From Pirellula staleyi DSM 6068 (GTDB lineage Bacteria > Planctomycetota > Planctomycetia > Pirellulales > Pirellulaceae): DNA of 32,000 bases. Location of the stretch: positions 1,050,001 through 1,082,000 of the forward strand of contig CP001848.1 in NCBI GenBank assembly GCA_000025185.1, in the 5' to 3' direction. The notes below the pieces were generated by a model that was given only the letters and a program-made list of their open reading frames with translations, did no database searches and was not told where the DNA came from. A program made the translations under genes and the position numbers. Positions within the stretch are counted from its first letter, which is position 1; every line of letters starts with the position of its first letter. Of the stretch, positions 1-14,067 are shown piece by piece.

Positions 1-315
1 TTGGTGATCGCCCGTTGTGGGTGTGAAGCCAGCCCACTAGCAATCAAGCAACTGTTAGTACCCAAAATCACTAGCACCAAGAGATCCGCAGCCAGTCAGG
101 TCAGCTAGCGCTTGCGCCCAAACATGCCTGCCTATCTGCTGACAAATTTCTATCAACTTTCTGACGAATTTCTTACAATCTACGGACGTTTTTGTCACTC
201 ATTTGGCAACAATCGCTGCCAAGTTCCTGACAATCTCTGCAAGAGTTCTTCACAAGCTGGGCATCGATCGAAAGTGGCCGAGGCGACTCGCGACCCGTAA
301 ATTCCGGTGTCGAAG

Positions 316-2553
316 TTACAACTCGAAGTGGAAGGTCTTCGCTAAAAAGCGGTAGAGACGTTTCCCGAGTGGTTGCCATCCTGTGTAAATTCTAGCCTGT
401 CCTTGCTGACCAACTTGAACATTTCCGAGTGAATTTCCGAGCGGAGCTGTCGCCTGGTACGACGTATGTAACGGTCGTGCCATTCCTAGCGCGTCGGTAT
501 AGGTATCGAGGCGTCCGCCCCCCTTGCTCGACGAACCGGCCGAAGCGACTTTCAGCTCGGTCGCGGCGATCTTTTCCACCTGGCTATCGAACGCTTCATA
601 GGTGTGCGATTCGAGCAGCACACTCACCTGCTGATCCTTCCGGACGAGGTCGATGTACGACTGATCGATCACCATCACCGCTTCGAGGTTGCTGGTGTCC
701 CCAATCACGCAGAGCAGATCGGTGGGGGTGAAGAGTGCGCCGACATTCCGCTCCGAGAGTGGGGTGCCGGTCCAAGTCTTCAGCCGACCTTCTTCACGAC
801 CTGCTTTGGCAGGTCGACTCGGGGCGGGAATCACAACCCCAGCCACCGGCGCGGTGATGGTCAGCCGCTTCGATTCCTCGAGCCGCTCGTTATATTGCCG
901 CTCGGCGGCTTGCAGCACTTGCTCGGCGGCTTCGATTTGGTCGACCGCCGTGCTATCGGTAAAGCGGAGTCGATAGAGCCCTTCGAGGGCGTTTTTGGCT
1001 TCATCGCGCTGCCCCTTGAGGCGGAGCAATTCGATTTCCATCTCGGGGTTATCAAGCCGCGCGAGAACGGTTCCCGCTTCCACTTTATCGCCCGGTTTCA
1101 CGAGCACTTCGAGCAGTGTGCCGGGGGTGCTCGCAAAGATCTGCACGAGCTCGCGAGGCTGCACTTCGCAGGCCGCTTTCACCGAGTACGGGAGCGGAAT
1201 GAACAGGAGCAGTCCCACCGCGCCAGCGACCGACGCAAGGGTGATGGCGACTCGTGTACGTTTCACTTTATTCATCCTCCCAGGGGCCCGGAAAAATTTC
1301 CACAGCTCCATGATGGGCTGAGCGACGAGCCCCACAAAACCCGACAGCGCGATGAGTTGTCCCACCGGCTTCAGACCAATCGGCTCGAAGACTTTGTTCA
1401 GAAAAAACAGAATCGAGAAGACCACCACCCAGCGATAGGCAACCGCCGCCACGGTGAACAGTGCAAAGGCCCAGCGATTCCCTTGCGGCAAGAAGGGGTT
1501 CTCGGGCTGCTCGATGCCGAGACACCAGTACAGCAGAAATCGCCGCGTAATCTCCGTCGCTTTTTGACGCAGGTTCGGGATTTCGAGCAAGTCCATCAGG
1601 ATGTAGTAGCCGTCGAAACGTAGCAGCGGATTGCCGTTGAACACGATCGTGCTGACCGAGCAGATGAACATCACGCTGAGCGCAATATGGTTGATCATCC
1701 CCGGTTCGCTGAACCACCAGACAAACGTGGCGACCGATGCTAAGAACAGCTCGACATACATCCCCGCTGCGCCGATGAACGCGCGGTGATATTTGTTGGG
1801 CAACATCCAGCTGTCGGAAACGTTGCAGTAGAGCGCCGGAGTGAAGACCAGCAGCATCGCGCCAAGTTCGTGGCATTCGCCGCCGTAGTGCTTGCACGAG
1901 AGTCCGTGCCCAAATTCGTGGAGCACCTTCACGCTCGCCATCGTGATCCCGAGCCAGATCCAGTTGCGTGGACCAAAGAACTCGTGAAACGCTGGCAGAC
2001 GTTGCGTAAAGACGTCGACGTTGACCATCACCAGCGAAAGCGCGGCGACCGCCAGCATCAACACGCCAATGATCGCGGCCGGTGTGAAGAACCAGCCGGT
2101 GAAGGGATAGAGCCAGTTGAAAAAGCGTTCGGGATCGACACCCCGAAAGCGCATCGAGAAGACATTCGAGAGCTTGCCGAGCATCTCGCGCCACTTCTTC
2201 TCGTCGCGACGTTTGCGGAGCTGATGCCCTTGGCCTGGAGCTTCGCTAATCACCAGCCCACTGCGGTGCAGCATGCCGACGAACTGTAGTAGGTCCTGAA
2301 ACGTGATCTTCTGCGGCTGATACTGCTGCTCGAATTGCTCTTTGATTTCGTCGAGGCTGTGATGGCCGTCGAGCATGCACAGAATCGCATACTCTTCTTC
2401 GTGAAATCGGAAGTAACTGAGGCCGACCGGTTCTTTGAGCACCCAGAACGTGGTGCCGTGATAGCGATGCCGACGGGCCGACAGGTCGGGCCGCATGCGC
2501 AGCTGCAGCGGACGCGAGGTGCTGCTTACCAGACTATCGGCGAGAGTGACCAT
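316..2553 (-). CDS. PqqD/RRE-like domain + site-2 protease (peptidase M50) + HlyD-type membrane-fusion domain fusion protein
   Basis: 745-aa ORF with ATG at 2553. N-terminal ~70 aa (YFRFHEEEYAILCMLDGHHSLDEIKEQFEQQY...LLQFVGMLHRSGLV) looks like a PqqD-type peptide-binding winged helix. Polytopic core carries HEFGH (HExxH) and NPLLRFDG (NxxPxxxxDG), the two S2P catalytic motifs. After three more hydrophobic helices, the C-terminal half has a split lipoyl-type motif (PGTLLEVLVKPGDKVEAGTVLARLD ... ITAPVAGVV) around a coiled-coil hairpin, typical of HlyD/MFP proteins. GC-rich third codon positions. Confidence 0.85.
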   Translation of the reverse strand: MVTLADSLVSSTSRPLQLRMRPDLSARRHRYHGTTFWVLKEPVGLSYFRFHEEEYAILCMLDGHHSLDEIKEQFEQQYQPQKITFQDLLQFVGMLHRSGLVISEAPGQGHQLRKRRDEKKWREMLGKLSNVFSMRFRGVDPERFFNWLYPFTGWFFTPAAIIGVLMLAVAALSLVMVNVDVFTQRLPAFHEFFGPRNWIWLGITMASVKVLHEFGHGLSCKHYGGECHELGAMLLVFTPALYCNVSDSWMLPNKYHRAFIGAAGMYVELFLASVATFVWWFSEPGMINHIALSVMFICSVSTIVFNGNPLLRFDGYYILMDLLEIPNLRQKATEITRRFLLYWCLGIEQPENPFLPQGNRWAFALFTVAAVAYRWVVVFSILFFLNKVFEPIGLKPVGQLIALSGFVGLVAQPIMELWKFFRAPGRMNKVKRTRVAITLASVAGAVGLLLFIPLPYSVKAACEVQPRELVQIFASTPGTLLEVLVKPGDKVEAGTVLARLDNPEMEIELLRLKGQRDEAKNALEGLYRLRFTDSTAVDQIEAAEQVLQAAERQYNERLEESKRLTITAPVAGVVIPAPSRPAKAGREEGRLKTWTGTPLSERNVGALFTPTDLLCVIGDTSNLEAVMVIDQSYIDLVRKDQQVSVLLESHTYEAFDSQVEKIAATELKVASAGSSSKGGGRLDTYTDALGMARPLHTSYQATAPLGNSLGNVQVGQQGQARIYTGWQPLGKRLYRFLAKTFHFEL

Positions 2554-2635
2554 AGAGACGTCGAGCGAGCGTTAGATGAGTCAAACAGAAGCGAACAGAC
2601 GAATCCGAAGCGACGGTGTAATTTGATGGGGGCAG

Positions 2636-4222
2636 TTATTTGATGGGGGCAGCGGGCGGCGGAGTAGTCGGTGCCGCTGGAGCTGTTGGTGCGGGAACAG
2701 CGTCGCGCTTCACACCTGGAATCTGGCCCGTAGCTGCAGGGGCAAATGCGCCGCTACCAATTCCTGGCGCACCGGCGGGGCTTTCAACCACCGGCTTGAG
2801 CGTGGTGGTCTCGGTGGTGGAAGGTGTGGCCGCGATTGGCTTGCCCGCTGGCTCACTCGGAGGGGTCGCCTGAGCCGAGGTTCCAGGGGCGGCCGGTTTC
2901 GCAGGAGCTGGGGCTGGCTTGCCGGGAGCCGTGACAGGCTTCCAGTTCGATGGAGCAGCTGGCGCACCACCAGCAGCATTGCCAGGAGCTGCGCTACTGG
3001 GGACTGCGCTGCTCGGAGCCGCCGAATTTGGCTTGGCTTCGGTCGTGGGGACTCCGTAGGTGCCGACGTATGTCTTATCGATACGCAGGTCGGCGCTCGC
3101 ACCGGGCTGAATCACATAGTGACCTTCGAGCAGACGATTCTCGACTTCAGCCCAGACACGGAACTGGCGGCTGCGTCCGGTCCCTTCGACAATCGGGCTC
3201 ACAAAGTCGATCACGCCGCGCACCACTTCCGTCTTACCGCGCGACAGATGTACGGTTACTTCCACGGGCTTACCAGCCACCTCCGATGGAGTGGCCTCGT
3301 CGGCGAGAACAAAACCTTCCACACGGACGCGATCGAGGCGTACGAGTCGCAAGATCGGTTCGCCAGGCTGAACCCACTCACCCACCTTCTTGAAAACTTC
3401 CACCACCACACCCTTTTGCGGTGCGGCGATGCGGCGGCGCTGGATTTCGTTATCAGCCGCTTCGACCTGCGTGCTTTTCACCACGGTGGTGAGCTGCGCG
3501 ACAACGCGATCGACCTCGGCCACTTTGATTTGTGCTAGTGCTCGGTCGAACTGGAAGCGCGAACGACGCATGTCGAGATCGCTCACCGCGTCGGGATTCT
3601 TGGCCCGAATCTGGATGTTCTGATCCATTTCGATCTTCGAAACTTCGGCCGCTTTTTGAGCCGCTTCGAGTTCAGCGGTACTCTCGGCTTGTGTCGTGGC
3701 GACGCTCAATTCCCCTTCGGCGATTTTTCGTTTAGCCAGGGCATCGCGATTGTCGAGTTCTCCCAGGATATCTCCCTCGAGCACCGACTCGCCCCCCTTC
3801 ACCACGAGCGACATCAGCGTGCCAGGCTCGCGAGCAGGAACACGAATGTCGTCAAACGCAGTCACCAGACCGTGCGGAACCACCACCACGCCGGGACCGG
3901 TGAAGTTCGGCTGTTTGGCCGGAATTTTGTTTGCCGTGCGCGGGGCGCTTGCTGCAGGTGCGCTCAGCGAAGGGGCCGTGGCTGCAGGGCTGGGTGGAAG
4001 CAGATTGGTCGGAGGAGTGCTCGCTGGCTTCGCAGCAGGCGTTTGCGGCGCAGCGCTCGGAACTGCAGTGCTTGGCACAGCAGCGCTCGGAGCAGTCGCC
4101 GCTGGTGCTACGGCAGCCGCAGGCGATTGGCCTTGCAGGTGAAGCGTTGTCATCAGCCCCAGTCCGATGCCGGCGATCGACAAGAGCGAGTTTCGCAGCG
4201 TGAGGTGTTGTGGTTTTTTCAA
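2636..4222 (-). CDS. HlyD-family periplasmic adaptor (membrane fusion protein) with Pro/Ala-rich N- and C-terminal extensions
   Basis: 528-aa ORF. TTG start at 4222 with GGAG 8 nt upstream. N-terminal anchor helix (LLSIAGIGLGLMTTL). ~90 aa P/A/S/T-rich spacer. MFP core (GTLMSLVVKGGESVLEGDILGELD ... long coiled coil ... IAAPQKGVVVEVF ... beta-barrel region). ~140 aa P/A/T-rich C-terminal tail. Lies 82 nt upstream of the M50-HlyD gene. Confidence 0.85.
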   Translation of the reverse strand: MKKPQHLTLRNSLLSIAGIGLGLMTTLHLQGQSPAAAVAPAATAPSAAVPSTAVPSAAPQTPAAKPASTPPTNLLPPSPAATAPSLSAPAASAPRTANKIPAKQPNFTGPGVVVVPHGLVTAFDDIRVPAREPGTLMSLVVKGGESVLEGDILGELDNRDALAKRKIAEGELSVATTQAESTAELEAAQKAAEVSKIEMDQNIQIRAKNPDAVSDLDMRRSRFQFDRALAQIKVAEVDRVVAQLTTVVKSTQVEAADNEIQRRRIAAPQKGVVVEVFKKVGEWVQPGEPILRLVRLDRVRVEGFVLADEATPSEVAGKPVEVTVHLSRGKTEVVRGVIDFVSPIVEGTGRSRQFRVWAEVENRLLEGHYVIQPGASADLRIDKTYVGTYGVPTTEAKPNSAAPSSAVPSSAAPGNAAGGAPAAPSNWKPVTAPGKPAPAPAKPAAPGTSAQATPPSEPAGKPIAATPSTTETTTLKPVVESPAGAPGIGSGAFAPAATGQIPGVKRDAVPAPTAPAAPTTPPPAAPIK

Positions 4223-4306
4223 GGGAACTACTCCGGCCCAAGGGCCCGAATGTGCGTGGTGATGTGGAGGGTGCTGATGTCGGCGCTGGGAGCCACGGCG
4301 AGCGAA

Positions 4307-6361
4307 CTAGAAGAACAGATTCGCTTCGGCCCATTCCCAAGCTTCGTGCAGCTTGGCCCAGCCGAGCGACGCCTTGCCGCAGTTCACATTAGCCGTGACC
4401 GTCGCGCCCGGATAAGGGGTGTTGAGTTCGGTATCGGTACTCACTTTGATGCGCACAATTTGGCCATGCTCTTCGTGCGTTTCAGCCACCGGATCGATCT
4501 GCGTCACCTTGCCGTAGTGATAGGTCCCGGGATCGGTCATCAGGATGTAGTCGACCGCCAGTTCCTGCGAAGGATCGTCTTTTTTGATCTGGTTGCGATA
4601 GCGAACGATGTGATCGATCCGCTTCTCGGGCATGTAGAGCTCGAGCTCGTAGTCGGTCCCTTCTTCGGCAATCGTCATCAGCAGCTGACCAACTTCAACA
4701 GGGCGATTCTGCAGAGATTTTTTCGTATCCCAGGTGATCACGCGGCCCCGTTTGGGGCTTACGACGGTGAGCTGTTTTTTGCGATCGAGCAGCAACTGCA
4801 AGCGCTCGTCGAGGCTTTCCACTTGCACTTGGACGCGCGACATCTGCGCTTGATCGCGGGCGCGTTCTTGTTCGGTAACCTGACGACCGGTGTTGGTCAC
4901 GCGGTCGCGCACGGCAGCGAGTTCTTCGCGCGCGGCGAGAAGCTGACCTTCGACCTCGGCAATCTGCAGCGGCAGCTCATCGCTCCGCATCTTCAGCAGC
5001 ACTTGCCCCTCTTCCACCAGCGTGCCGTTGTCGACCAGCACTTCGGTGACAACACCGCGCTGCGGCACAAAAATGTCGGCCTTCGAAATCGGCTGCAAAG
5101 TTCCCTTCGCACGCATGTCGAAATCGGTCTGAATGACCGCTAGTGCCAATAGCACCGCCAGCACAATGCCGGTGATGGTGAGTGTTTTGGGAAGCTGTCG
5201 CGCCTGCACCACCCAGCCTGCTTTGCCAAGCGTTTTCCAGACTGGCATCAGGAACAAACTGTTGTGATCGATGGCGTTGGTGAGGGCCCGCGACGAGTGT
5301 TCGTAGACCAGGTCGAGACGTGGCAGGAGGACTTCGCGCGGGATCTCGCTTTCGATCTGCTCGACGATGATTGCGCCGATCAGTTCCCCCTTCTTTTCCG
5401 ACTCACTGGGGGTGGTGGTTCCGGCGGCAGCATCGGCTGATTTCGGTTTGCGAATCGGAATCACCGCGAGCGATTTGGTGTACGACTGATCGACGTACTC
5501 CTCCACTGCGGTTTCGATTTGCGGCGGCATATCCTCAGTCGAACCGTAATACCACAGCGGCTCGCCAGTGGCGACGACGCGCGTGGCAAGTTTGCCCAGC
5601 AGCGTGACGACGTTCGAGCGGTTGTCGAGTGTGTCTTGACCACTCACCGCTTCGATGGTGCAGCTGCTTCCATGTTTGAGGGCGATGCTGACACGGTCGC
5701 AGCCGAGCAAGCGTCGACCTTCGTTGACGATGGTGTAGCAGGTTTCGCGAACGTCGAGACTTTCGTGCGCGGCGCGTGAAAAACTATCGGCCTGCGCCCA
5801 GAGGGAGTGTCGATCGGAGAACTGCTTGAGGCGGCGATTCTTGAACCACTCCGACGCCATCTCGCACATCTGCCGCAGGAACTGCAAATAGCCGCGCTGC
5901 GTGGCTGGTGGCGAATTGGGGCGCTGGAAAATTTCGATTAGCGCTTCCACCTGGTCGTCGTGTCCCAGGGGATGAATCACCAGCAGTTGACGGGTCGGAT
6001 TGCCACCCATCCGCTCGTCGCCCGCGCCGGAGAGCGGGGGGACCAGCTGCGGCTGATTGCTGGCGATGATGTAGTCGAGCAAGCGATAGTGCTTTTGCGC
6101 ATCGTCGCAGCCACTATCGAGCAAGTTCGGCGTGAGATTGATTTGATACGACAGCTCGGGCTTCTTCGCTTCACCAAGCACCCAAATCGCGCCACCCACA
6201 GCGGCGAGCGCTTGCACCACGCGCTGCAAGAATGCGGCGTGGAACTCTTCGGGGGTCATGTCGCTCTTGCAGATCTGCGCAACCTCGCCCACCAAGCCAC
6301 GAATCTGCTGCTTGGTTTTTTCGATGGTCTCGCTGCTGACCTGAGATTGTCCCGTTGCCAT
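4307..6361 (-). CDS. Tandem GAF-like sensor domains + TM helix + HlyD-type adaptor domain
   Basis: ORF is open to a TTG at 6469 (720 aa). The first ATG is at 6361 (MATGQSQVSS..., 684 aa) and is preferred. Two GAF-like blocks (AAVGGAIWVLGE...LLVIHPLGHDDQVEALIEIFQ and RRLLGCDRVSIALKHGSSCTIEAVSGQD...GELIGAIIVEQIES). One TM helix (LTITGIVLAVLLALAVI). Then an MFP core (RGVVTEVLVDNGTLVEEGQVLLKMRSD ... coiled coil ... VVSPKRGRVITWD ... beta-barrel). Lies 84 nt upstream of the next adaptor gene. Confidence 0.8.
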   Translation of the reverse strand: MATGQSQVSSETIEKTKQQIRGLVGEVAQICKSDMTPEEFHAAFLQRVVQALAAVGGAIWVLGEAKKPELSYQINLTPNLLDSGCDDAQKHYRLLDYIIASNQPQLVPPLSGAGDERMGGNPTRQLLVIHPLGHDDQVEALIEIFQRPNSPPATQRGYLQFLRQMCEMASEWFKNRRLKQFSDRHSLWAQADSFSRAAHESLDVRETCYTIVNEGRRLLGCDRVSIALKHGSSCTIEAVSGQDTLDNRSNVVTLLGKLATRVVATGEPLWYYGSTEDMPPQIETAVEEYVDQSYTKSLAVIPIRKPKSADAAAGTTTPSESEKKGELIGAIIVEQIESEIPREVLLPRLDLVYEHSSRALTNAIDHNSLFLMPVWKTLGKAGWVVQARQLPKTLTITGIVLAVLLALAVIQTDFDMRAKGTLQPISKADIFVPQRGVVTEVLVDNGTLVEEGQVLLKMRSDELPLQIAEVEGQLLAAREELAAVRDRVTNTGRQVTEQERARDQAQMSRVQVQVESLDERLQLLLDRKKQLTVVSPKRGRVITWDTKKSLQNRPVEVGQLLMTIAEEGTDYELELYMPEKRIDHIVRYRNQIKKDDPSQELAVDYILMTDPGTYHYGKVTQIDPVAETHEEHGQIVRIKVSTDTELNTPYPGATVTANVNCGKASLGWAKLHEAWEWAEANLFF

Positions 6362-7010
6362 AGTCGCTCGGCTCAGTCTGACGTTAGGGGGCTCACTAAG
6401 TAGTTTGGCAACACGCGCGTGGCCGGGGGGCTTTCGCGCTTGGCAATTTTTGCAAGCCACAAGCGGCAAACCAGCTGCAGCTTCTGGCTACGTAAAAATT
6501 GCAAACCAAACTCCAATCTTTCAGCAAATCGGTGCCGCGCTACTGGCGTAGCCAGCACGGTTTGCTTGCTTCTCGGCGCTATCCTTCACACGATTTCTCG
6601 TGCACTGTCATTCAGTTGTGCACTATCACTTGCCACTGTCATTCGCACGCTGTCACTCACCACAGACACGCTGCTGCGGGCCTGCCAGAACGTCGGTGAA
6701 GCGGCAAAGCTCCACGCAGAAAGTTCTAGGTTCACTCTAAATGCTGATGCTCTCGCTGCTGTACGTTTTGTTTCATTTCCCGAGCATTTCCGCTGGTTTT
6801 GACCTCCAGCCGTAATGCCTGTAACGTTTATCCGTTTGGCGTGCGACGATTTGTCTAACCTTCTGTCACGCCCATTTGATTTTCTTAACACGACCCGTTT
6901 TGGCAGACTTTTCGGCAAAGCCCTTTCACCCAACGCAAACCTCGTGCCCAGGAAGCTGACTCGCTCTAAAAACAACCATTTGCAAACGCCACTCGGTAGG
7001 CCACTCGGCA

Positions 7011-9044
7011 TCAATCGGGCGTATCGAGGTAGGGATCTTGCCCCATCTCGAGCTGCATCTTCTTCCGCTCTTTCTCATGGTGCAGCAGCGCAAAGCGATC
7101 GCGCAAATGCTTCCGCTCGACCCGCTGCTGAGCCCGAAAGATCATTCCCACTTGTCGTTGGGCGGCAGGACCTGCGGTCTTGCCCCACTGCTCCATCCGC
7201 TCGGCCACTTCGGGGCCATAGCCGCTTTTGATCACATCGTCGTCGAGCGACATATACTGCCGCGTCGTGCCGGGATCCCCTTGGCGACCACAGCGTCCGA
7301 CGAGCTGACGATCGATCCGCGCGCTATCGTGCAGCTCGGTGCAAATCACATGCAGGCCACCCAGTTCGCGCATGCCAGGAGCCAGTTTGATGTCGGTACC
7401 ACGACCGGCCATGTTCGTGGCGACAGTCACTTTGAATTGTTCGCCCGCGAGCGCCACGATCTCTGCTTCGCGCTCCACCTCGTTGGCATTGAGCACGCGG
7501 TGGGTGATGCCAGCGGCGGTGAGGAGCCGCGAGAGATGCATCGATTTATCGATGCTCTTGGTGCCGATCAGCACCGGGCGACCCACCTGGTTCATCGCCT
7601 TCACATCTTCCACCACAGCGGCCCATTTTTCGTCCTCGGTGCCGAAGACCAAATCGGGCAAGCGCTTGCGCTGCGACGGGCGATTCGTCGGAATCGGCAC
7701 CACGCGCATCTTGTAGACTTTGCGAAATTCGTTGGTGGCCGACATCGCCGTACCGGTCATCCCCGCGATGTGCTTATAGCGCAGAAACAGATCTTGCACC
7801 GTGATGCGGGCCGCTTGTCCCGTGGCGACTGAAACTTCGATCTTCTCTTTCGCTTCAATCGCTTGATGAATGCCATCGCGCCATTTGCGACCTTCGGCCA
7901 AACGGCCGGTGTTTTCGTCGACAATTGTGATCTCGCCGTCGATCACCACGTAGTGCCGGTTGAGCAAATAATCGCGCGCTACTTTTATGGCCCGCTCGAT
8001 GTACTGATACAGATCGACGAGCCCCATCGTGCTCAGCAGTTCGGGCTTTGGCAGCGCGCGCAGCAGCTGGCGACCAGCTGCAGTGAGCTCGACTTTTTTA
8101 TCTTCGTCGTCGTAGTCGTAGTGCTTCTCTTCGAGGAACTGCGATTGCACTTCAGCCGCCCAGCGATAGGTGGCAACAATCCGGTCGATCGCTTTATCGC
8201 CAAGCGCGCCGATGATCAGCGGCGTGCGTGCTTCGTCGATCAAAATGCTGTCGGCTTCGTCGACCAGGCAGAAGTGCGCTTCGCGCTGCACCGGCTGTTC
8301 GCTGTTGGCGTCGGCTCCGACACCGGTGAATTGCCCCAGCAAACTCCCTTGCGCGGCGCCGAGCCTGCGGAGCAGCAAGCGATCGCGCAAGAAGTCGAAG
8401 CCAAATTCTTTGGCGGTGCCGTAGGTGATGTCGCAGCCGTACGCCTTGCGGCGGGCGTCGGATTTATCTTTGGTCAGCACCACGCCGGTGGTGAGTCCCA
8501 GCATGGCATAGACCGGGCGCATCATGTTGGCATCGCGCTCGGCCAGGTAGTCGTTCACGGTCGCCAGATGCGACCCTTTCCCCACCAGCGCGTGGAGATA
8601 CATCGGCAGCGTGGCGGTGAGCGTTTTACCTTCACCCGTTTCCATTTCGGCAATCGAGCCGTGAAACAGGGCAATGCCGCCAATCATTTGCACGTCGTAG
8701 TGACGCTGGCCAATCACGCGGCGCGATGCTTCGCGCACCAGCGCATAGGCCTCGGGCAACAGCGTGGCGAGTTTCTCGCCACTTTTGGCGCGATACTTCA
8801 GCGAGAGGCTCCGCTTACGCAGCTCGCGATCATCCTCGGCAACGAGGGTCTCTTCAAACGCCGCGATTTGCGGAAGCACCTGCCCCCAACGGGCGAGACG
8901 ACTTTGCACGGGACCACCGAGCAAGGAGAGCACCTGGGCTCGCCAGCCTGTAGGAAGACCGTGAATCGTGGGAGGGTTGGTCATGATGTTTCGCAGTGGT
9001 GGCAAAGTGCCGATGTCGGAAACCGGCAGAGAAGCGTACGTCAT
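7011..9044 (-). CDS. secA: SecA-family preprotein translocase ATPase, short paralog lacking the usual C-terminal domains
   Basis: Unmistakable SecA motifs: AEMETGEGKTLTATLP (Walker A), LVDEADSILIDEARTPLII (Walker B/DEAD), TNMAGRGTDIKL, GGLHVICTELHDSARIDRQLVGRCGRQGDPG. The ORF is open to 9323, but the first 93 codons translate a polypurine tract (RGESRGGKKCEGRGG) and look non-coding. Candidate ATG starts are 9044 (MTYASL, 677 aa) or 8984 (MTNPPT, 657 aa). Confidence 0.85.
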   Translation of the reverse strand: MTYASLPVSDIGTLPPLRNIMTNPPTIHGLPTGWRAQVLSLLGGPVQSRLARWGQVLPQIAAFEETLVAEDDRELRKRSLSLKYRAKSGEKLATLLPEAYALVREASRRVIGQRHYDVQMIGGIALFHGSIAEMETGEGKTLTATLPMYLHALVGKGSHLATVNDYLAERDANMMRPVYAMLGLTTGVVLTKDKSDARRKAYGCDITYGTAKEFGFDFLRDRLLLRRLGAAQGSLLGQFTGVGADANSEQPVQREAHFCLVDEADSILIDEARTPLIIGALGDKAIDRIVATYRWAAEVQSQFLEEKHYDYDDEDKKVELTAAGRQLLRALPKPELLSTMGLVDLYQYIERAIKVARDYLLNRHYVVIDGEITIVDENTGRLAEGRKWRDGIHQAIEAKEKIEVSVATGQAARITVQDLFLRYKHIAGMTGTAMSATNEFRKVYKMRVVPIPTNRPSQRKRLPDLVFGTEDEKWAAVVEDVKAMNQVGRPVLIGTKSIDKSMHLSRLLTAAGITHRVLNANEVEREAEIVALAGEQFKVTVATNMAGRGTDIKLAPGMRELGGLHVICTELHDSARIDRQLVGRCGRQGDPGTTRQYMSLDDDVIKSGYGPEVAERMEQWGKTAGPAAQRQVGMIFRAQQRVERKHLRDRFALLHHEKERKKMQLEMGQDPYLDTPD

Positions 9045-9084
9045 TAATCTTAGAAAATTCGGGGAACTGCGTCGTGAGTTTTGT

Positions 9085-9098
9085 CCGGGAATTCCCGG
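9085..9098. promoter_or_regulatory. 14-bp perfect palindrome CCGGGAATTCCCGG upstream of the secA paralog
   Basis: Read directly from the sequence. Lies 41 nt upstream of the 9044 ATG on the minus strand. It could be an operator or a 5' UTR hairpin; the function is unknown. Confidence 0.25.
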
Positions 9099-9229
9099 CA
9101 AATCCGCACAATCGTCACCCTGAAAAGTGCAGCCAGCAGCAAGAGTTTCCGGCGGTTCCGAGCCCACCGGCGCTCCCCTGCGGCGGTTATACGAACCGCA
9201 AGTCGGTCTGGTTGTCGTCCTGGGAAAAG

Positions 9230-9310
9230 CCCCGCCTCGCCCCTCGCATTTCTTCCCTCCTCTGCTTTCCCCTCGCCTCTCGTCTCCTGCCTCCCACCCC
9301 TTCGCCCTGC
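9230..9310. repeat. Polypyrimidine (plus strand) / polypurine (minus strand) tract with reiterated CCTCGC
   Basis: Hand count gives 11 purines in 81 nt (~86% pyrimidine on the plus strand). CCTCGC occurs at 9235, 9242 and 9271. Lies in the divergent spacer between the secA paralog and the BBP7 gene. Confidence 0.6.
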
Positions 9311-9602
9311 TAGCCCGCTGCACTGCATCGCTAGCAAAACTTTCCCACTACAAACGCTACAGCCGGAATATTTTCTCAATCGATTGCTACCCGACCGCCG
9401 AAGATTACCCCACAGCGAACCCTGGGCAAGATTTGCCGATTGCAAGGACTGTTCAGGGGTAAGACGGCTCGGAACGGCTTTGCACAGGACGGGCAAAGTG
9501 CGTCGAGTTTGACGGTCGTCCGTGACCTTGCTGGATTTTCCGGTTCTGCCGGTCGATCCCAATCATGCAACTGGCGACACTTTTTTGAGCGAGCTGATTC
9601 CC

Positions 9603-11009
9603 ATGAAGTCGACCTCGATGTTCTCCGCCGCGATGGCCTGGCTGGCTCTCACTGCCTCGGCTGCGGTCGCACAGACGATGGAACAGCCTGCTTCGTACGT
9701 GGAGCCTGCCTCCTACGGCGAATCTGGCAGTGGGGCCATGACCGCTGCCTACGAAGAGCCCACCCAGCGCACCGGACCAATGGTGCAACTCGCCTCGTGG
9801 TGGAACAACACCGCCGGTGGTGCCAGTGCCAACTGCACCGACACTGCACCCTCGTGTGGCGATGTGCTCGGCTACGGTCCAGCCTCGGAATATTGCGGCG
9901 AGATGTGTAACCCACGTTGCCGCTCGCTCGATCTGTGGGGGAACGTCGAGTTCCTGATGTGGTGGGGCAAAGGGACCGACCTGCCGCCACTGGTTGGCAC
10001 CAGCACCGATTCTGCGACACCACGCGGCGATGCTGCGGTCCTGGGCCGCCCTAACTACGAAAACCTCTTCGGCGGCGATACCTACGGCAACGAACTGCAA
10101 GTCGGTGGACGCTTTACCGCCGGTCTCTGGCTCGATCCGCATCACACCTTGGGCTGGGGCACCCGCTTCATGGCTTTGGGTGGCGACGATGCCAACTTTG
10201 CGGCTGCCAGCACGGGGGACCAAGGATCTCAAATTCTCGGTCGGCCGTTCTTCAACGCCCTGCTCGCCACCGAAGACTCGCTGCTGATCGCCTACTTCGA
10301 TGAACTGCAAGGCGATCCGATTGCCGGTGGCAGTGTGAACGCCAGCTTCAGCAACAGCTTCCTGTCGGCAGAAACGTTCTTCCGCGTGATGATGGAAAAC
10401 GATGGCCGCCGTCGGGTCGACCTCTTGGCCGGTTATCAAATGCTCCGCCTCGACGACGCCTTCCAAGTCAACAGCTTCCACACCAGCCGCGATCCACTCT
10501 CGCTGATTCCTGTCGGCACCACATTCGACATCACCGACCGCATCCGTGCGAAGAATGAATTTCACGGTGGTATGTTCGGCTTGCAGAGCTCGCTGCAGAA
10601 CGGACAGTGGTCGATCGACAGCATCGCCAAGATGAGCGTCGGCAATATGAACCAGAAGATCGAAATGTTCGGTCAAACGCTGGTCGACGGTGTCGCAGCT
10701 CCCGGTGGTGGTTTGCTCGTACAACCGACCAACGCCACACCTCCGACTCGCGAACGCGACAAGTGGGCTTTCATCCCTGAAATCAGCCTCGCCCTGGCTT
10801 ATCACCCCACGCAAAACCTGAGCTTCTCGGTCGGCTACAACATCATCTGGATGTCGGATGTGGTGACCTCGGGAGACCAGGTCGACCGGAACGTGAACAT
10901 CACGCAAGTGAATGGCCCACTGATTGGCCCAGCGGTTCCTGCTCCACGCTTTGTCGACAGCGACTACTGGCTGCAAGGGATCAACTTCTCGATGAACTAC
11001 GACTTCTAA
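9603..11009 (+). CDS. BBP7-family (DUF1551-like) outer-membrane beta-barrel protein
   Basis: The ORF opens at a GTG at 9522. The ATG at 9603 gives a clean signal peptide (MKSTSMFSAAMAWLALTASAAVAQ). WGNVEFLMWWGKG motif, alternating beta-strand pattern, and a C-terminal aromatic residue (NFSMNYDF), typical of planctomycetal BBP7 barrels. Strong GC3 in this frame. Confidence 0.75.
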   Translation: MKSTSMFSAAMAWLALTASAAVAQTMEQPASYVEPASYGESGSGAMTAAYEEPTQRTGPMVQLASWWNNTAGGASANCTDTAPSCGDVLGYGPASEYCGEMCNPRCRSLDLWGNVEFLMWWGKGTDLPPLVGTSTDSATPRGDAAVLGRPNYENLFGGDTYGNELQVGGRFTAGLWLDPHHTLGWGTRFMALGGDDANFAAASTGDQGSQILGRPFFNALLATEDSLLIAYFDELQGDPIAGGSVNASFSNSFLSAETFFRVMMENDGRRRVDLLAGYQMLRLDDAFQVNSFHTSRDPLSLIPVGTTFDITDRIRAKNEFHGGMFGLQSSLQNGQWSIDSIAKMSVGNMNQKIEMFGQTLVDGVAAPGGGLLVQPTNATPPTRERDKWAFIPEISLALAYHPTQNLSFSVGYNIIWMSDVVTSGDQVDRNVNITQVNGPLIGPAVPAPRFVDSDYWLQGINFSMNYDF

Positions 11010-11057
11010 ACGAAGTTGGTTAAGCGAAGTCCACCCGACAGCTTAGTGAAACAACTG

Positions 11058-11099
11058 CAGAGGCCATCTTCCACGCGAAGGTGGCCTCTGTCGTTTCTT
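11058..11099. terminator. Bidirectional intrinsic-terminator-like hairpin between convergent genes
   Basis: cAGAGGCCATCTTC-CACGC-GAAGGTGGCCTCTg forms a 13-bp stem (one G.U pair). It is followed by TCGTTTCTT on the plus strand and GTTGTTTC on the minus strand. Sits between the stop at 11009 (+) and the stop at 11110 (-). Confidence 0.6.
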
Positions 11100-11109
11100 G
11101 CGGCACGTG

Positions 11110-12165
11110 CTAAGGCATTGCTGGGGTGCTAAAGAACTCGCTCGTGTGATGCATCGCCGAAAACAGATGCCGAATCACACTGTAGTGCCCCCCCGGATAC
11201 CACTTGATGGCTGGCTCACCCGCCTCTTGCCAGAGCGCGAGGGTGCAATCGCGGTGAATCACTTCATCCTTCTCGGCGTTGAGCATCAGGACGCGGCGAT
11301 CTTTCAAGTTAGCGGCGTACGTGATGGGGTCGATCGGTTTGAGGGTCGCCGTGAACTGATCTTTCGTGAATCCGTCCATCACCCATTTGCGGCGGAACTT
11401 CGCCAGCTCTTTCGATTCCCAAGCGATCCGGCCCAGGTCGGCACCCGCCAGAAGCAGGCAGGTGTTTTCGATCCGAGGCTCGACCGCAGCAGCCAGGGCG
11501 CTGGTGATCCCACCTAAGCTGATTCCAAAAATACCGGTCTGCTGGGGATCGATCGTTTCGCGCTGGCTTTCGAACCAGCTGATGCCACGGCGGATATCCA
11601 TCACCGCTTGCCGCATGCCGACCACCGTTTGATCGGGGTCTTCGCTAATCATGCGGCGCGATTCCCCCGGCGCGCGACGATTGCCATAGTACGGCAGATG
11701 GATCAGCATCGAGGCGCTGCCGTTCTGCGCCAGGTGATTGCAAAAGACGCGCGACAGCTGCAAATCCCCGCCCAGAATATGGAGCACGATCACCGCCGGA
11801 CGCTGCCCCGCCATTTTCGGCCGATAGAACTCCCCATGCACCGTGTTGTTGGCGGGAGACTCGGTTTTCATCGCCGAAGGAAAGGTGACGTGCCAAATCT
11901 CGATCGACTTGCTCTCGATTGGCACCTCGCGCACCGCGACTTCAAAATCTTCGACCGGCAGACGAAACAGCTCGGGGATTTTCGCCTCGAACTCGGCTGT
12001 CAAACCTTCGACCGGCATCACGGCTGGCAGAGGGGCCAGCTCGACATTGGCCCCCAGCGCCGCACTACTGGCCAGCAGCCCAAGCGCCAGAGAACCCAAG
12101 CTAAGGCACCCTGCAAGTCGCCAAGAAGAATGCAGTAAGTGACTACCAAGCAATAACTTAAGCAT
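11110..12165 (-). CDS. Secreted alpha/beta hydrolase (dienelactone hydrolase / S9 peptidase-like)
   Basis: 351 aa with ATG at 12165. Signal peptide (...LGLLASSAALGA). Nucleophile elbow GISLGG (GxSxG). HILGGD oxyanion-like region. Downstream Asp (EKDEVI) and His (PGGHYS) fit a Ser-Asp-His triad. Confidence 0.8.
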   Translation of the reverse strand: MLKLLLGSHLLHSSWRLAGCLSLGSLALGLLASSAALGANVELAPLPAVMPVEGLTAEFEAKIPELFRLPVEDFEVAVREVPIESKSIEIWHVTFPSAMKTESPANNTVHGEFYRPKMAGQRPAVIVLHILGGDLQLSRVFCNHLAQNGSASMLIHLPYYGNRRAPGESRRMISEDPDQTVVGMRQAVMDIRRGISWFESQRETIDPQQTGIFGISLGGITSALAAAVEPRIENTCLLLAGADLGRIAWESKELAKFRRKWVMDGFTKDQFTATLKPIDPITYAANLKDRRVLMLNAEKDEVIHRDCTLALWQEAGEPAIKWYPGGHYSVIRHLFSAMHHTSEFFSTPAMP

Positions 12166-12569
12166 GATGGTCTTTCGGCCAGAGTGCGCTGCGGACAGGT
12201 ATCGTCAGACTACCCACCTTACCCCCACGAGGCGAGCCAAGATTCGAACTTGCCAGCAGAACATCCCTAAACTCATTTCCAGTAACGCTTTACCGTGTTT
12301 ATACAAGGAGCAACTAGAGCTTCCCGCTCCTCCGGAGGTGGGCTGAAGCCACGCTAACAACGCACCAAAGGGGCGCGTCACCGCATTCTTGCGGAAATGC
12401 ATCAAAACAAGTTGATTCGATTCCGCGATGTCGATAAGTTGCGTAGGCGCTACTGTATGCAGGTTGTCGCGGCATGTTTGCCGCTGCTTTCTGCACGCTA
12501 CTTGCTGCAAGCTGCCCCGCCCTGTCCACCAGCCGATCCTCCCCCCAACGTTTTTGAGGAGCCCCAGCC

Positions 12570-13853: not shown

Positions 13854-14067
13854 GCGGGCTCGATCCGCAGCGCGTCGCCCCACCCGATTGAAGGTGACTG
13901 CAAACGACCATTTTCCGCTTGAAGTTAGCCTCGCCATGCTTTCCCGTTTCTGACGTTTCCGGGGAGGTGTGCGGGGCTTTCTTCGTTTTCGCGTTTTCCC
14001 GGGGAATTTCGAGAAATCGTGGCAGCAAAGCGGGGCGGTAAAGTTCGCAGGAAAAGGTCGCTCGAGA

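What the first reader, a model, noticed from the sequence alone, without database searches (positions are those of the whole stretch)
316..6469. Pump-less operon of three paralogous HlyD-type adaptors with distinct N-terminal modules (tandem GAF / Pro-Ala spacer / RRE + site-2 protease)
Three co-directional minus-strand genes are separated by only 84 and 82 nt. Each encodes a complete membrane-fusion-protein core: split lipoyl motif, coiled-coil hairpin and beta-barrel region.

In established tripartite systems (HlyBD-TolC, MacAB-TolC, AcrAB-TolC) the adaptor works only with an ABC, RND or MFS pump and an outer-membrane factor. No such gene lies between these genes, in the ~650 bp upstream, or in the 315 bp downstream. 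The only polytopic inner-membrane module is the M50 intramembrane protease fused to the last adaptor. The first adaptor carries a cytoplasmic tandem-GAF sensor.

My inference is a hetero-oligomeric periplasm-spanning assembly whose inner-membrane engine is a peptide-recognising intramembrane protease under small-molecule control. That would be a signal-gated peptide processing and release conduit rather than an efflux pump. I know of no experimentally characterised system with this composition.
Basis: partly seen in the sequence, partly recalled or inferred. Interest (0 to 1): 0.8.

Follow-up and report, generated by a model that had tools for sequence, protein, structure and literature searches.

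The report
ABC-less secretion module with SecA-like motor
The three adaptor genes are real and conserved, but they belong to a gene module already described by computer analysis in 2015, whose likely motor (a truncated SecA-like ATPase) sits just upstream and which in other bacteria lies next to giant surface-protein genes it probably exports.

Summary
Three co-directional minus-strand genes, 82 and 84 nt apart, encode an RRE-like + M50 protease + HlyD protein, a Pro/Ala-rich HlyD protein, and a GAF + HlyD protein. There is no ABC, RND, MFS or TolC gene in the window or 10 kb beyond its left edge.

"Pump-less" is misleading. The next gene upstream (7011-9167, -) is a truncated SecA paralog. 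This four-gene module was described in silico by Kamneva, Poudel & Ward (2015, PMC4452313). I found no experimental characterisation in the searchable library.

New here:
- A small, very conserved DUF3467 gene flanks the triad in 18 of 44 testable planctomycete loci and 4 of 10 proteobacterial loci.
- In 9 of 10 proteobacterial megaplasmid loci the module lies directly downstream of a very large ORF. Six annotated ones are about 4,000-16,000 aa, and three more are at least 2,600-5,000 aa.
- All 8 N-termini I read carry a LEPR-XLL-type motif, and the motif flavour tracks the module subtype.

Best reading: an ABC-less, type-I-like export and processing machine for proteins with that N-terminal leader.

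The parts
316..2553 (-). RRE-like + M50 intramembrane metalloprotease + TM anchor + HlyD-type periplasmic adaptor (745 aa)
   Evidence: ORF and domain hits. HExxH and NxxPxxxxDG are invariant. AF2 model, with adaptor fold matches.
2245..2514 (-). N-terminal cytoplasmic RRE/PqqD-like domain (aa 14-103) of the M50-HlyD protein
   Evidence: PqqD hit is sub-threshold in the window copy. 20 of 30 homologues hit PqqD. A profile search of the PDB gives TfuB1 at 0.026 and PqqD at 0.043. The model shows beta strands then three helices.
1201..2133 (-). Polytopic M50 membrane domain plus the last TM helix (aa 141-451). HEFGH is at aa 212-216 and NPLLRFDG at aa 308-315.
   Evidence: Hydropathy, conserved columns, and helices plus a re-entrant beta-hairpin.
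319..1197 (-). HlyD/membrane-fusion domain (aa 453-745) with a short alpha-hairpin
2636..4222 (-). Middle adaptor (528 aa): signal-peptide-like N-terminus, Pro/Ala-rich linker, HlyD core (about aa 117-395), and a Pro/Ala/Thr-rich C-terminal tail of about 130 aa
   Evidence: No strong TM segment was found. A plain HlyD gene is adjacent in 52 of 66 planctomycete loci.
4307..6361 (-). GAF(-GAF) + TM + HlyD adaptor (684 aa from the ATG; the longest ORF runs to the TTG at 6469)
   Evidence: Present in 52 of 59 planctomycete loci with enough upstream sequence.
7011..9167 (-). Truncated SecA paralog ('SecA2'). It has NBD1, the preprotein cross-linking domain, NBD2 and the start of the scaffold helix. 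It has no SecA_SW hit and ends where PDB SecA/SecA2 chains have a further ~170 or more residues.
   Evidence: Pfam. Alignment to PDB SecA/SecA2 covers only residues about 16-611. Synteny, coordinates, and description in Kamneva 2015.
9603..11009 (+). BBP7-family putative outer-membrane beta-barrel, divergent from SecA2. Membership of the system is uncertain.
   Evidence: Pfam BBP7 at 3e-129. An orthologue is present in all 10 close Pirellulaceae loci with full synteny. A BBP7-family gene also lies directly upstream of GAF-HlyD in L017.
1..315 (-). Most of the ~411-nt spacer between M50-HlyD and a DUF3467 gene that starts about 97 nt beyond the left edge of the window (seen in near-identical contigs L001-L003)

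Best explanation
The three genes are the envelope-spanning core of a conserved protein export and processing module that resembles type I secretion but has no ABC transporter. The module also includes the truncated SecA-like ATPase just upstream and, just outside the window, a small DUF3467 protein.

Shown:
- Domain content, invariant protease residues and the adaptor fold.
- Conserved synteny of the triad in Planctomycetota, and the equivalent module in Proteobacteria.
- Adjacency of the proteobacterial module to TolC in half the loci (5 of 10) and, in 9 of 10 loci, to a very large ORF. Six annotated ones are about 4,000-16,000 aa.
- A LEPR-XLL-type N-terminal motif in all 8 of these ORFs whose start I read.

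Inferred mechanism:
1. The cytoplasmic RRE-like domain of the M50-HlyD protein binds the basic, LE(P/x)RxLL-containing N-terminal leader of the cargo. DUF3467 may help as a cytoplasmic adaptor or chaperone.
2. The SecA-like motor uses its preprotein clamp and ATP hydrolysis to feed the chain into an inner-membrane passage built from M50 membrane domains.
3. The M50 active site removes the leader.
4. The HlyD domains of the three proteins form a mixed periplasmic tube that docks to an outer-membrane channel. That channel is TolC in Proteobacteria and unknown in Planctomycetes, where the neighbouring BBP7 barrel is one candidate.
5. The cytoplasmic GAF domains gate the machine in response to a small ligand.

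In Planctomycetes the likely cargo is the large set of proteins with the 'Planctomycete extracellular' LExRxLLA N-terminal motif, encoded elsewhere in the genome.
For: Module identity:
- Kamneva et al. 2015 describe the SecA_DEAD + Peptidase_M50/HlyD + GAF/HlyD + HlyD locus in five phyla.
- The order BBP7 | SecA2 | GAF-HlyD | HlyD | M50-HlyD | DUF3467 recurs in L001, L004, L005 and 7 further Pirellulaceae loci.

Planctomycete counts:
- GAF-HlyD is present in 52 of 59 testable loci, and a plain HlyD gene in 52 of 66.
- DUF3467 is present in 18 of 44 and SecA2 in 11 of 39. Every one of these is in a locus that also has GAF-HlyD.
- DUF3467 sits at either end of the triad on the same strand.

SecA2. 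It hits SecA_DEAD (2e-103), SecA_PP_bind and P-loop_SecA, with no SecA_SW hit. Walker A (GEGKT) and the DEAD-box region can be read in the sequence. It aligns to PDB SecA only up to about residue 611.

Proteobacterial equivalents:
- Methylosinus: giant LamG protein | DUF3467 | GAF-HlyD | PqqD-M50-HlyD | SecA2 | HlyD | TolC.
- Similar arrangements occur in Pseudosulfitobacter, Pontibrevibacter, Thalassospira, Mesorhizobium and Rhodobacteraceae M382.
- A shorter form (TolC | HlyD | HlyD | M50-HlyD) occurs in Azospirillum, Variovorax and Cupriavidus CH34.
- No ABC exporter gene is annotated adjacent to the module or to the large ORF in the annotated loci. The only ABC components seen are uptake-type genes about 8 kb away in L100.

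Cargo signal:
- All 8 N-termini read carry the motif, and 3 of 3 tested pass NCBIfam LEPR-8K.
- The motif flavour covaries with the module subtype. [LIM]EPRxLL[SN]AD occurs with the GAF-HlyD form that carries SecA2 and/or DUF3467 (SAD in 4 of 5, NAD in Methylosinus). ALE[PA]Rx[LM][FY]DAA occurs with the short form.
- Pfam Planc_extracel gives weak hits to both a proteobacterial and a planctomycete N-terminus.

Precedent. RiPP M50 proteases are the closest sequence relatives. One of them, EpeP, is thought both to cleave and to export its peptide (PMC10885120).
Against: - There is no experimental evidence for transport, cleavage, complex formation or co-transcription.
- No protein with an LExRxLL N-terminus is encoded in the 32-kb window. 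Such proteins are not clearly enriched around planctomycete loci: about 11 in 1.29 Mb.
- SecA2 is adjacent in only 11 of 39 testable planctomycete loci, and the short proteobacterial subtype has no linked ATPase. SecA2 therefore cannot be a universal engine.
- SecA2 ends shortly after the start of the scaffold helix, so from known SecA structures it should lack the two-helix finger that drives chains into SecY. How it would push a chain is open.
- A 648-nt gap separates SecA2 from the triad, with no operon evidence.
- S2P-family proteases are not known to form protein-conducting channels.
- The RRE and first-GAF assignments are sub-threshold for the window's own sequences.
- The DUF3467 model is of low confidence and has no informative structural match.
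- BBP7 linkage cannot be separated from shared ancestry.
Confidence: 0.6

Rival explanations
1. The module is a GAF-gated conduit that recognises a small ribosomal peptide through the RRE, cleaves its leader with the M50 protease and releases it through a mixed HlyD tube, with no dedicated ATPase.
For: The nearest sequence families of the N-terminal 410 aa are RiPP leader peptidases: daptide_HExxH at 9e-55 and YydH/LiaK at 4e-13. EpeP is thought to cleave and export a peptide. The short proteobacterial subtype has no ATPase in the cluster. No pump lies at the locus.
Against: No RiPP modification enzyme or precursor-like small ORF is conserved nearby. The only conserved small gene is DUF3467, whose ~85-aa core is almost invariant, unlike RiPP precursors whose core regions usually vary (general knowledge of RiPP families). 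The scores are far below the NCBIfam equivalog cutoffs (186 vs 300 bits, and 49.6 vs 225). The module sits next to very large LEPR-XLL protein genes in 9 of 10 proteobacterial loci. A SecA-like ATPase with a preprotein-binding domain is linked in this locus.
Confidence: 0.12
2. The module controls rather than transports. By analogy with LapD/LapG, it would process or release the N-terminus of a giant adhesin that is exported by another route. The GAF domain would be the cytoplasmic sensor and the M50 domain the releasing protease.
For: There is adjacency to giant repeat proteins with a conserved N-terminal motif, a cytoplasmic sensor domain fused to a periplasmic domain, and an intact protease site.
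Against: Three membrane-fusion proteins plus TolC plus a SecA-like motor make up a transport-type parts list. No ABC type I exporter is annotated next to the giant genes in the loci read. The M50 active site lies in the inner membrane with a cytoplasmic recognition domain, whereas LapG acts in the periplasm (from the LapD/LapG literature, not tested here).
Confidence: 0.1
3. These are ordinary efflux adaptors that work with an ABC, RND or MFS pump and an outer-membrane factor encoded elsewhere in the genome. The fused domains are accessory.
For: RND_mfp and HlyD family hits, and RefSeq names such as 'efflux RND transporter periplasmic adaptor subunit'.
Against: No pump gene is conserved near about 80 planctomycete loci or in the 10 proteobacterial loci read. 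The RRE-M50-HlyD architecture is conserved full length in at least 150 cluster representatives of 35-52% identity. All scores are below the subfamily cutoffs.
Confidence: 0.05
4. The module performs regulated intramembrane proteolysis for signalling. The M50 domain would cleave a membrane-tethered regulator such as an anti-sigma factor, with the HlyD domains acting as periplasmic sensors or scaffolds.
For: This is the classical role of the S2P family. The catalytic motifs are intact and a GAF sensor is present in the partner protein.
Against: No sigma/anti-sigma pair is conserved nearby. Linkage to TolC, SecA2 and giant secreted proteins points to transport. A cytoplasmic peptide-binding RRE-like domain replaces the PDZ domains found in RseP-type S2Ps (established knowledge of that family).
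Confidence: 0.05

Closest known systems
Conserved 'secondary SecA_DEAD + three HlyD-domain proteins' locus of Kamneva, Poudel & Ward 2015 (PLoS One 10:e0129066; PMC4452313)
   Same: It has the same four gene families: SecA_DEAD protein without the wing/scaffold domain, Peptidase_M50-HlyD, GAF-HlyD and plain HlyD. It was reported in Planctomycetes among other phyla, and the same hypothesis was proposed (SecA2 as the ATPase, the M50 domain as the inner-membrane component).
   Different: That paper does not mention the PqqD/RRE-like domain, DUF3467, BBP7 or giant neighbouring proteins with an N-terminal motif. It contains no experiments on function.
Type I secretion systems (HlyBD-TolC; LapBCE for giant adhesins)
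   Same: Both have membrane-fusion proteins of the HlyD/AcrA fold, TolC in the proteobacterial versions, and a very large repeat protein encoded next to the apparatus.
   Different: There is no ABC transporter. A SecA-like ATPase and an M50 protease are present instead, with three different adaptors rather than one. The candidate signal is N-terminal (LEPR-XLL), not the C-terminal signal of classical type I substrates (established knowledge).
RiPP membrane M50 leader peptidases (daptide HExxH protease NF041824; EpeP/YydH/LiaK NF058609)
   Same: The N-terminal ~410 aa aligns over nearly the whole daptide protease model (9e-55) and has the same HExxH membrane protease. EpeP is thought to both cleave and export.
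   Different: The scores are below the equivalog cutoffs. The protein is fused to a periplasmic HlyD domain, and no RiPP tailoring genes lie nearby. The likely substrates are huge proteins rather than peptides.
Peptidase-containing ABC transporters (PCATs)
   Same: The logic is the same: a protease that recognises an N-terminal leader is built into the exporter, which works with an HlyD-type adaptor in Gram-negatives (PMC8277102).
   Different: PCATs use a C39 cysteine protease and an ABC motor. Here there is an M50 metalloprotease and a separate SecA-like motor.
Accessory SecA2 systems of Gram-positive bacteria and mycobacteria
   Same: The protein is a second SecA paralog, and its best PDB matches include SecA2 (6sxh, E=9e-151). 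Both serve a dedicated subset of cargo.
   Different: Here the protein ends shortly after the start of the scaffold helix, so the distal helical domains are missing. It is linked to HlyD/M50 proteins rather than to SecY2 or SecYEG.
Signal-plus-dedicated-intramembrane-enzyme sorting systems (rhombosortase/GlyGly-CTERM, exosortase/PEP-CTERM)
   Same: The concept is similar: a short conserved terminal motif on many cargo proteins, paired with a dedicated polytopic membrane enzyme. This comparison is from my own knowledge and was not tested.
   Different: The motif here is N-terminal, the enzyme is an M50 metalloprotease, and the system includes a trans-envelope conduit.

Membership tests
Kamneva 2015 SecA_DEAD/HlyD module | SecA_DEAD protein lacking the wing/scaffold domain | tested here: met
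   SecA_DEAD, SecA_PP_bind and P-loop_SecA hits with no SecA_SW hit. The PDB alignment stops at about residue 611.
Kamneva 2015 SecA_DEAD/HlyD module | Three neighbouring HlyD-domain proteins: one with Peptidase_M50, one with GAF and one plain | tested here: met
   The same order is found in related loci.
Tripartite efflux / type I secretion system | Periplasmic adaptor of the HlyD/AcrA fold | tested here: met
   Pfam hits. Foldseek matches to AcrA, MacA, MexA and EmrA at E about 1e-12.
Tripartite efflux / type I secretion system | Inner-membrane ABC, RND or MFS transporter encoded with the adaptor | tested here: not met
   None in the window, in 10 kb beyond it, or conserved across about 80 planctomycete loci or the 10 proteobacterial loci read.
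Tripartite efflux / type I secretion system | TolC-family outer-membrane factor | tested here: not met
   Not present at this locus. It is present next to the homologous module in 5 of 10 proteobacterial loci by annotation.
Peptidase M50 (site-2 protease) | HExxH and NxxPxxxxDG motifs within membrane helices | tested here: met
   HEFGH at 212-216 and NPLLRFDG at 308-315 are invariant in 31 sequences. They lie in predicted helices.
Peptidase M50 (site-2 protease) | Pfam PF02163 gathering score | tested here: not met
   20.2 bits against a cutoff of 27.2. Many homologues carry a precomputed PF02163 hit.
Daptide intramembrane metalloprotease (NF041824 equivalog) | Score of at least 300 bits and a daptide gene-cluster context | tested here: not met
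   186.3 bits. No daptide biosynthesis genes lie nearby.
RRE / PqqD-like peptide-recognition domain | PqqD model hit and a fold of a three-stranded sheet plus three helices | tested here: inconclusive
   The window copy scores 15.6-19 bits against a cutoff of 23.4. 20 of 30 homologues hit at E<=0.1 and a Methylosinus orthologue scores 28.7 bits. The model topology fits. PDB profile hits are weak.
RRE / PqqD-like peptide-recognition domain | Binds a leader peptide | not testable with these tools
   This needs binding assays or complex modelling.
GAF domain (tandem) | Two GAF domains N-terminal to the TM helix | tested here: inconclusive
   The second domain scores 37.3 bits against a cutoff of 22.4 (met). 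The first is GAF_3 at 17.4 bits against 27 in the window copy. 8-9 of 21 homologues hit GAF models there. hhalign of GAF1 against GAF2 was negative.
SecA translocase ATPase | Full domain set including the helical wing domain, the IRA1 two-helix finger and the C-terminal tail | tested here: not met
   The protein ends about 20 residues after the last position that aligns to PDB SecA (about residue 611 of chains of 780-1,000 residues). There is no SecA_SW hit.
LEPR-XLL (NF012209) / Planc_extracel (PF07595) cargo | A protein with this N-terminal motif encoded at the locus | tested here: not met
   None in the window. It is met in 8 of 8 large ORFs whose start was read next to proteobacterial modules.

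The most novel reading that the evidence does not exclude
The module would be a distinct secretion pathway in double-membrane bacteria. A short N-terminal LEPR-XLL / 'Planctomycete extracellular' leader would be read by an RRE-like domain. The chain would be driven by a truncated SecA paralog, possibly with DUF3467 as a targeting factor. It would pass through and be cleaved by an M50 protease fused to a membrane-fusion protein, and leave the cell through a mixed three-adaptor tube and an outer-membrane channel, bypassing both SecYEG and ABC transporters. In Planctomycetes this would explain how the many proteins carrying the Planc_extracel motif are exported, and what that motif is for.
Probability: 0.4. 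Interest if true: 0.85.

Novelty: new member of a known kind. Interest (0 to 1): 0.62.

Why it matters
If the module works as inferred, it is a protein export route that fits none of the numbered secretion systems. It combines a type-I-like conduit with a Sec-derived motor and an intramembrane protease in place of the ABC transporter, and it handles some of the largest bacterial proteins known (up to about 16,000 aa in the loci read).

It would also assign a function to three orphan features: the truncated 'second SecA' of Gram-negative bacteria, DUF3467, and the LEPR-XLL / Planctomycete-extracellular N-terminal motif.

The context found here turns a 2015 in-silico observation into direct experiments, because each proteobacterial locus pairs a candidate cargo with its candidate machine.

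It also exposes systematic mis-annotation. In RefSeq records, SecA2 is named 'prepilin peptidase' or 'DEAD/DEAH box helicase', and M50-HlyD is named 'efflux adaptor' or 'PqqD family protein'.

Tried and rejected
1. Pump or TolC left of the window. I extended the locus with near-identical contigs and found only DUF3467 followed by unrelated genes.

2. A pump conserved anywhere near relatives. I clustered all ORFs from 82 loci. No ABC, RND, MFS or TolC cluster emerged.

3. Enrichment of LExRxLL proteins near planctomycete loci. About 11 occur in 1.29 Mb and none in the window. Four of the 10 closest loci have one within 9 kb downstream, but three of those four proteins are homologues of one another, so the cases are not independent. 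I treated this as not informative.

4. BBP7 as the outer-membrane partner. Orthologues occur only in the 10 closely related loci, so linkage cannot be separated from shared ancestry. I kept it only as a candidate.

6. Tandem GAF by internal profile-profile alignment. The result was negative, and the first attempt used wrong coordinates.

7. Promoter and terminator scan of 1-11200. Counts were at the level of shuffled sequence, so there is no operon evidence.

8. Rfam scan of the window. Nothing was found.

9. Literature searches for DUF3467, BBP7 and LEPR-XLL. No functional work turned up. The giant-gene preprint 10.1101/2023.11.21.568195 concerns SecA_DEAD domains inside giant proteins, which is a different matter.

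Full report
**Source of the window**

The window is 98.9% identical to a planctomycete MAG contig, GCA_002483025.1 DLHC01000002.1. That contig encodes a 100% identical copy of the 745-aa protein. Close homologues are annotated as Pirellulaceae or Pirellulales.

**Observation**

The ORF listing gives three minus-strand ORFs: 316-2553 (745 aa), 2636-4222 (528 aa) and 4307-6469 (720 aa). The gaps are 82 and 84 nt. For the third gene, the called start in the near-identical contig and the alignments of homologues point to the ATG at 6361 (684 aa) rather than the TTG at 6469.

Domain evidence:
- All three proteins carry lipoyl-type and HlyD_3/HlyD_D23 adaptor signatures.
- The first protein in gene order also has a solid GAF domain (37.3 bits) and a weak upstream GAF_3 hit.
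- The last protein has a weak Peptidase_M50 hit and a weak PqqD hit. It also has a strong but sub-cutoff match to the daptide intramembrane metalloprotease model (9e-55 over residues 29-412) and to the YydH/LiaK model (4e-13).

Further checks on the 745-aa protein:
- In an alignment of 31 relatives of 33-52% identity, H212, E213, H216, N306, N308, P309 and D314 are invariant, so the protease should be active.
- An AF2 model (pLDDT 75) shows strands followed by three helices at residues 18-97.
- It then shows about nine helices with a re-entrant hairpin after the HExxH helix, and a last TM helix.
- It ends in an adaptor with a short alpha-hairpin. That C-terminal part matches AcrA, MacA, MexA, EmrA and ZneB at E about 1e-12.
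- The RRE assignment rests on 20 of 30 homologue N-termini hitting PqqD, a Methylosinus orthologue above the Pfam cutoff, weak PDB profile hits to the lasso-peptide RRE TfuB1 and to PqqD, and the model topology.

The first GAF domain is supported only through homologues: 8-9 of 21 hit GAF models, while an internal profile comparison failed. The three adaptor cores are only distantly related to one another.

The next gene upstream, 7011-9167 on the same strand, is a SecA paralog. It hits SecA_DEAD (2e-103), the preprotein cross-linking domain and P-loop_SecA, but has no wing/scaffold (SecA_SW) hit. It aligns to solved SecA and SecA2 chains only up to about residue 611 and then ends. From known SecA structures it should therefore lack the helical wing domain, the two-helix finger and the C-terminal tail. 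Walker A (GEGKT) and the DEAD-box region are readable in the sequence.

A BBP7-family putative outer-membrane barrel is divergently transcribed from it. In near-identical contigs a 112-aa DUF3467 gene follows the triad, starting about 97 nt beyond the window's left edge. No pump or TolC occurs in the next 10 kb.

**Literature**

A full-text search found Kamneva, Poudel & Ward 2015 (PMC4452313). It describes exactly this module: a secondary SecA_DEAD protein without the wing/scaffold domain, next to three HlyD-domain proteins (one with Peptidase_M50, one with GAF, one plain), sometimes with an OEP/TolC protein. [quoted passage not shown]

The authors proposed that SecA2 replaces the ABC ATPase and that the M50 membrane domain supplies the inner-membrane part. 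They stressed that the biological role is unknown. They do not mention PqqD/RRE, DUF3467, porins or giant neighbours. I found no later functional study. The library does not cover most subscription-journal papers.

**Synteny in Planctomycetota**

The RRE-M50-HlyD architecture is very common. 4,488 cluster representatives score E<=1e-30, and the best 150 are mostly full length at 35-52% identity.

I fetched 80 planctomycete loci from GTDB species genomes and mapped the six proteins by tblastn. Counts are over loci with enough flanking sequence.

| Gene next to M50-HlyD | Loci with it | Testable loci |
|---|---|---|
| Plain HlyD | 52 | 66 |
| GAF-HlyD | 52 | 59 |
| Both | 48 | 59 |
| DUF3467 | 18 | 44 |
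| SecA2 | 11 | 39 |

- Every locus with DUF3467 or SecA2 also has GAF-HlyD.
- DUF3467 lies either after M50-HlyD or before GAF-HlyD, always on the same strand. This argues for a functional link.
- The DUF3467 core is nearly invariant among Pirellulales.
- All-against-all clustering of neighbourhood ORFs gave no conserved ABC, RND, MFS or TolC family.
- BBP7 orthologues occur only in the ten closely related full-synteny loci. A BBP7-family gene also sits directly upstream of GAF-HlyD in L017.
- Several genomes carry two such loci.
- A GAF-less subtype is preceded by a DUF481 barrel.

**Context in Proteobacteria**

A tblastn search of PLSDB plasmids with the 745-aa protein found full-length relatives of about 27-30% identity on megaplasmids. 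I read ten loci.

| Organism (locus) | Gene order |
|---|---|
| Methylosinus (L086) | ~8,800-aa protein, DUF3467, GAF-HlyD, PqqD-M50-HlyD, SecA2, small HlyD, TolC |
| Pseudosulfitobacter (L087) | ~12,900-aa LEPR-XLL protein, HlyD, M50-HlyD, SapC, SecA2, HlyD |
| Pontibrevibacter (L092) | ~10,600-aa LEPR-XLL protein, DUF3467, HlyD, PqqD-M50-HlyD, SecA2, HlyD |
| Thalassospira (L093) | ~4,000-aa LEPR-XLL protein, DUF3467, HlyD, M50-HlyD, HlyD, TolC |
| Mesorhizobium (L094) | ~10,500-aa protein, DUF3467, HlyD, HlyD, M50-HlyD, SecA2 |
| Rhodobacteraceae M382 (L100) | ORF of at least 2,600 aa running off the fetched locus, HlyD, M50-HlyD, SecA2 |
| Azospirillum (L088) | very large ORF (>=5,000 aa), TolC, HlyD, HlyD, M50-HlyD |
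| Variovorax (L095) | ~16,200-aa protein, TolC, HlyD, HlyD, M50-HlyD |
| Cupriavidus metallidurans CH34 (L098/L103) | ~3,800-aa ORF, 589-aa ORF in the TolC position (not scanned), HlyD, HlyD, M50-HlyD |
| Magnetospirillum pMSR-1 (L099) | 492-aa repeat protein without the motif, TolC, HlyD, HlyD, M50-HlyD |

In Methylosinus and Pseudosulfitobacter the SecA2 gene is annotated 'prepilin peptidase' but is 45% identical to the window's SecA2. In Pontibrevibacter and Mesorhizobium it is annotated 'DEAD/DEAH box helicase', and I identified it by size and position only. No ABC exporter gene is annotated next to the module or the large ORF in these loci. The only ABC components seen are uptake-type genes about 8 kb away in L100.

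**Candidate signal**

All eight large ORFs whose start I read carry a short motif after a basic stretch near the N-terminus:
- TLEPRVLLNADV
- ALEPRFLLSADP
- PMEPRVLLSADP
- PIEPRILLSADP
- ALEPRLLLSADF
- ALEPRFMFDAAG
- ALEARYMFDAAA
- ALEPRLLYDAAA

Three of three tested pass NCBIfam NF012209, LEPR-XLL. The ...LL(S/N)AD flavour goes with the GAF-HlyD form of the module that carries SecA2 and/or DUF3467. The ...DAA flavour goes with the short form. This covariation fits direct recognition by the machine.

Large planctomycete proteins near some loci start with the related LExRxLLA motif, for example ERLEDRRLLAG. Pfam's 'Planctomycete extracellular' model gives weak, sub-threshold hits to both a proteobacterial and a planctomycete example.

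No such protein is encoded in the window, and I could not show enrichment around planctomycete loci.

**Interpretation**

*Shown:* a conserved set of one cytoplasmic motor-like ATPase, one polytopic protease with a cytoplasmic peptide-binding-type domain, three periplasmic adaptors and a small cytoplasmic protein. In Proteobacteria the set is joined in half the loci by TolC and in nearly all by a very large protein with a conserved N-terminal motif.

*Inferred:*
- The leader is bound by the RRE-like domain, perhaps with DUF3467.
- The chain is driven by SecA2 and passes a channel formed by M50 domains, where the leader is cut.
- It leaves through a mixed HlyD tube and an outer-membrane channel.
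- The GAF domains gate the process.

*Precedents:* PCATs have a leader-specific protease built into an exporter, and the RiPP M50 protease EpeP is thought to cleave and export.

*Weak points:*
- There are no experiments.
- SecA2 should lack the two-helix finger and is unlinked in many loci.
- The short subtype has no ATPase.
- No cargo gene lies in this window.
- The RRE and GAF1 calls for this copy are sub-threshold.
- The DUF3467 fold is uninformative.

Each is weighed in the report sections, and none fits the context as well.

**Verdict**

The feature is real and conserved. It is a new member of a module that has been recognised by comparative genomics since 2015 but never characterised. 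Relative to characterised systems it is an unusual variant of type I secretion.

The parts list and the absence of a canonical pump are right. The absence of an engine and the claim of no prior record are not.

The added links to DUF3467 and to LEPR-XLL / Planc_extracel cargo are inferences from gene context. They make the system directly testable.

The rest of the window holds unrelated housekeeping genes (DUF1501, succinate dehydrogenase-like flavoprotein and Fe-S subunits, PutA and others) and no Rfam match.

Noticed in passing
window 7011-9167 (-): Truncated SecA paralog directly upstream of the triad. It has intact ATPase motifs and a preprotein cross-linking domain, but no SecA_SW hit, and it ends shortly after the start of the scaffold helix.
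   Followed up: yes
about 97-435 nt beyond the left edge of the window (L001 12650-12988): A DUF3467 gene (112 aa) follows the triad. Its ~85-aa core is almost invariant among Pirellulales, far more conserved than the neighbouring machinery. The family has no known function, and the AF2 model (strand-strand-strand-helix-helix, pLDDT 64) gave no informative match.
   Followed up: partly
window 9603-11009 (+): BBP7-family putative outer-membrane beta-barrel, divergent from SecA2. It is conserved in the 10 closest loci. A BBP7-family gene also lies just upstream of GAF-HlyD in L017 (5001-6620). It is a possible outer-membrane partner, but this is unproven.
   Followed up: partly
L086 11177-13093; L087 12029-14053; L092 11097-13082; L094 11141-13102: RefSeq annotates the SecA-like gene of this module as 'prepilin peptidase' (L086, L087) or 'DEAD/DEAH box helicase' (L092, L094). 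M50-HlyD appears variously as 'PqqD family protein', 'efflux adaptor' or 'biotin/lipoyl-binding protein'. The L086 and L087 genes were confirmed as SecA-like by tblastn and Pfam. The other two were assigned by size and position only.
   Followed up: partly
L088, L095, L098/L103, L099: A shorter module subtype (TolC | small HlyD | ~450-aa HlyD | M50-HlyD) lacks GAF, SecA2 and DUF3467. Its neighbouring large proteins carry a different motif flavour (ALE[PA]Rx[LM][FY]DAA). The energy source of this subtype is unexplained.
   Followed up: partly
L046, L050, L076, L084 (about 1-2 kb upstream of M50-HlyD): Some planctomycete M50-HlyD genes have no GAF or plain HlyD partner nearby. They are instead preceded by a DUF481 outer-membrane-type barrel and a gene whose product resembles a glycosyltransferase by eye (not scanned).
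   Followed up: no
L006/L057, L027/L053, L064/L074, L056/L075, L026/L066: Several planctomycete genomes carry two M50-HlyD loci, so the system is multi-copy within one genome.
   Followed up: no
window 1813-1875 (-), aa 227-247 of the M50-HlyD protein: Just after the HExxH helix, C227, H228, E229 and C243 (GGECHE...LYCNVSD) are nearly invariant across distant relatives. This might be a second metal site or a structural site that is not part of the canonical M50 motifs.
   Followed up: no
window 2636-3030 and 3910-4150 (-): The middle adaptor has long Pro/Ala/Thr/Ser-rich low-complexity stretches on both sides of its HlyD core. The length of these stretches varies greatly among homologues (325-528 aa proteins).
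   Followed up: no
window 6362-7010: A 648-nt non-coding gap lies between SecA2 and GAF-HlyD, and its length varies from about 200 nt to 1.7 kb in related loci. No Rfam hit or convincing promoter or terminator was found, and its content is unexplained.
   Followed up: partly
window 1-12566 vs L001: The window is 98.9% identical to GCA_002483025.1, not 100% (119 mismatches and 3 gaps). It therefore comes from a very close relative or another assembly, although the 745-aa protein is identical.
   Followed up: yes
L087 11215-12036: A SapC-family gene sits inside the Pseudosulfitobacter module. From my own knowledge, SapC is otherwise known from the Campylobacter fetus S-layer type I secretion locus and has no assigned role.
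   Followed up: no
window 12570-32000: The rest of the window is unrelated. It holds DUF1501, a fumarate reductase/succinate dehydrogenase-like flavoprotein and Fe-S subunit, a HEAT/DMP19 protein, a pectate-lyase-like protein, PutA and a PQQ-type beta-propeller protein. ORF 20184-22958 (924 aa) has no Pfam hit.
   Followed up: partly
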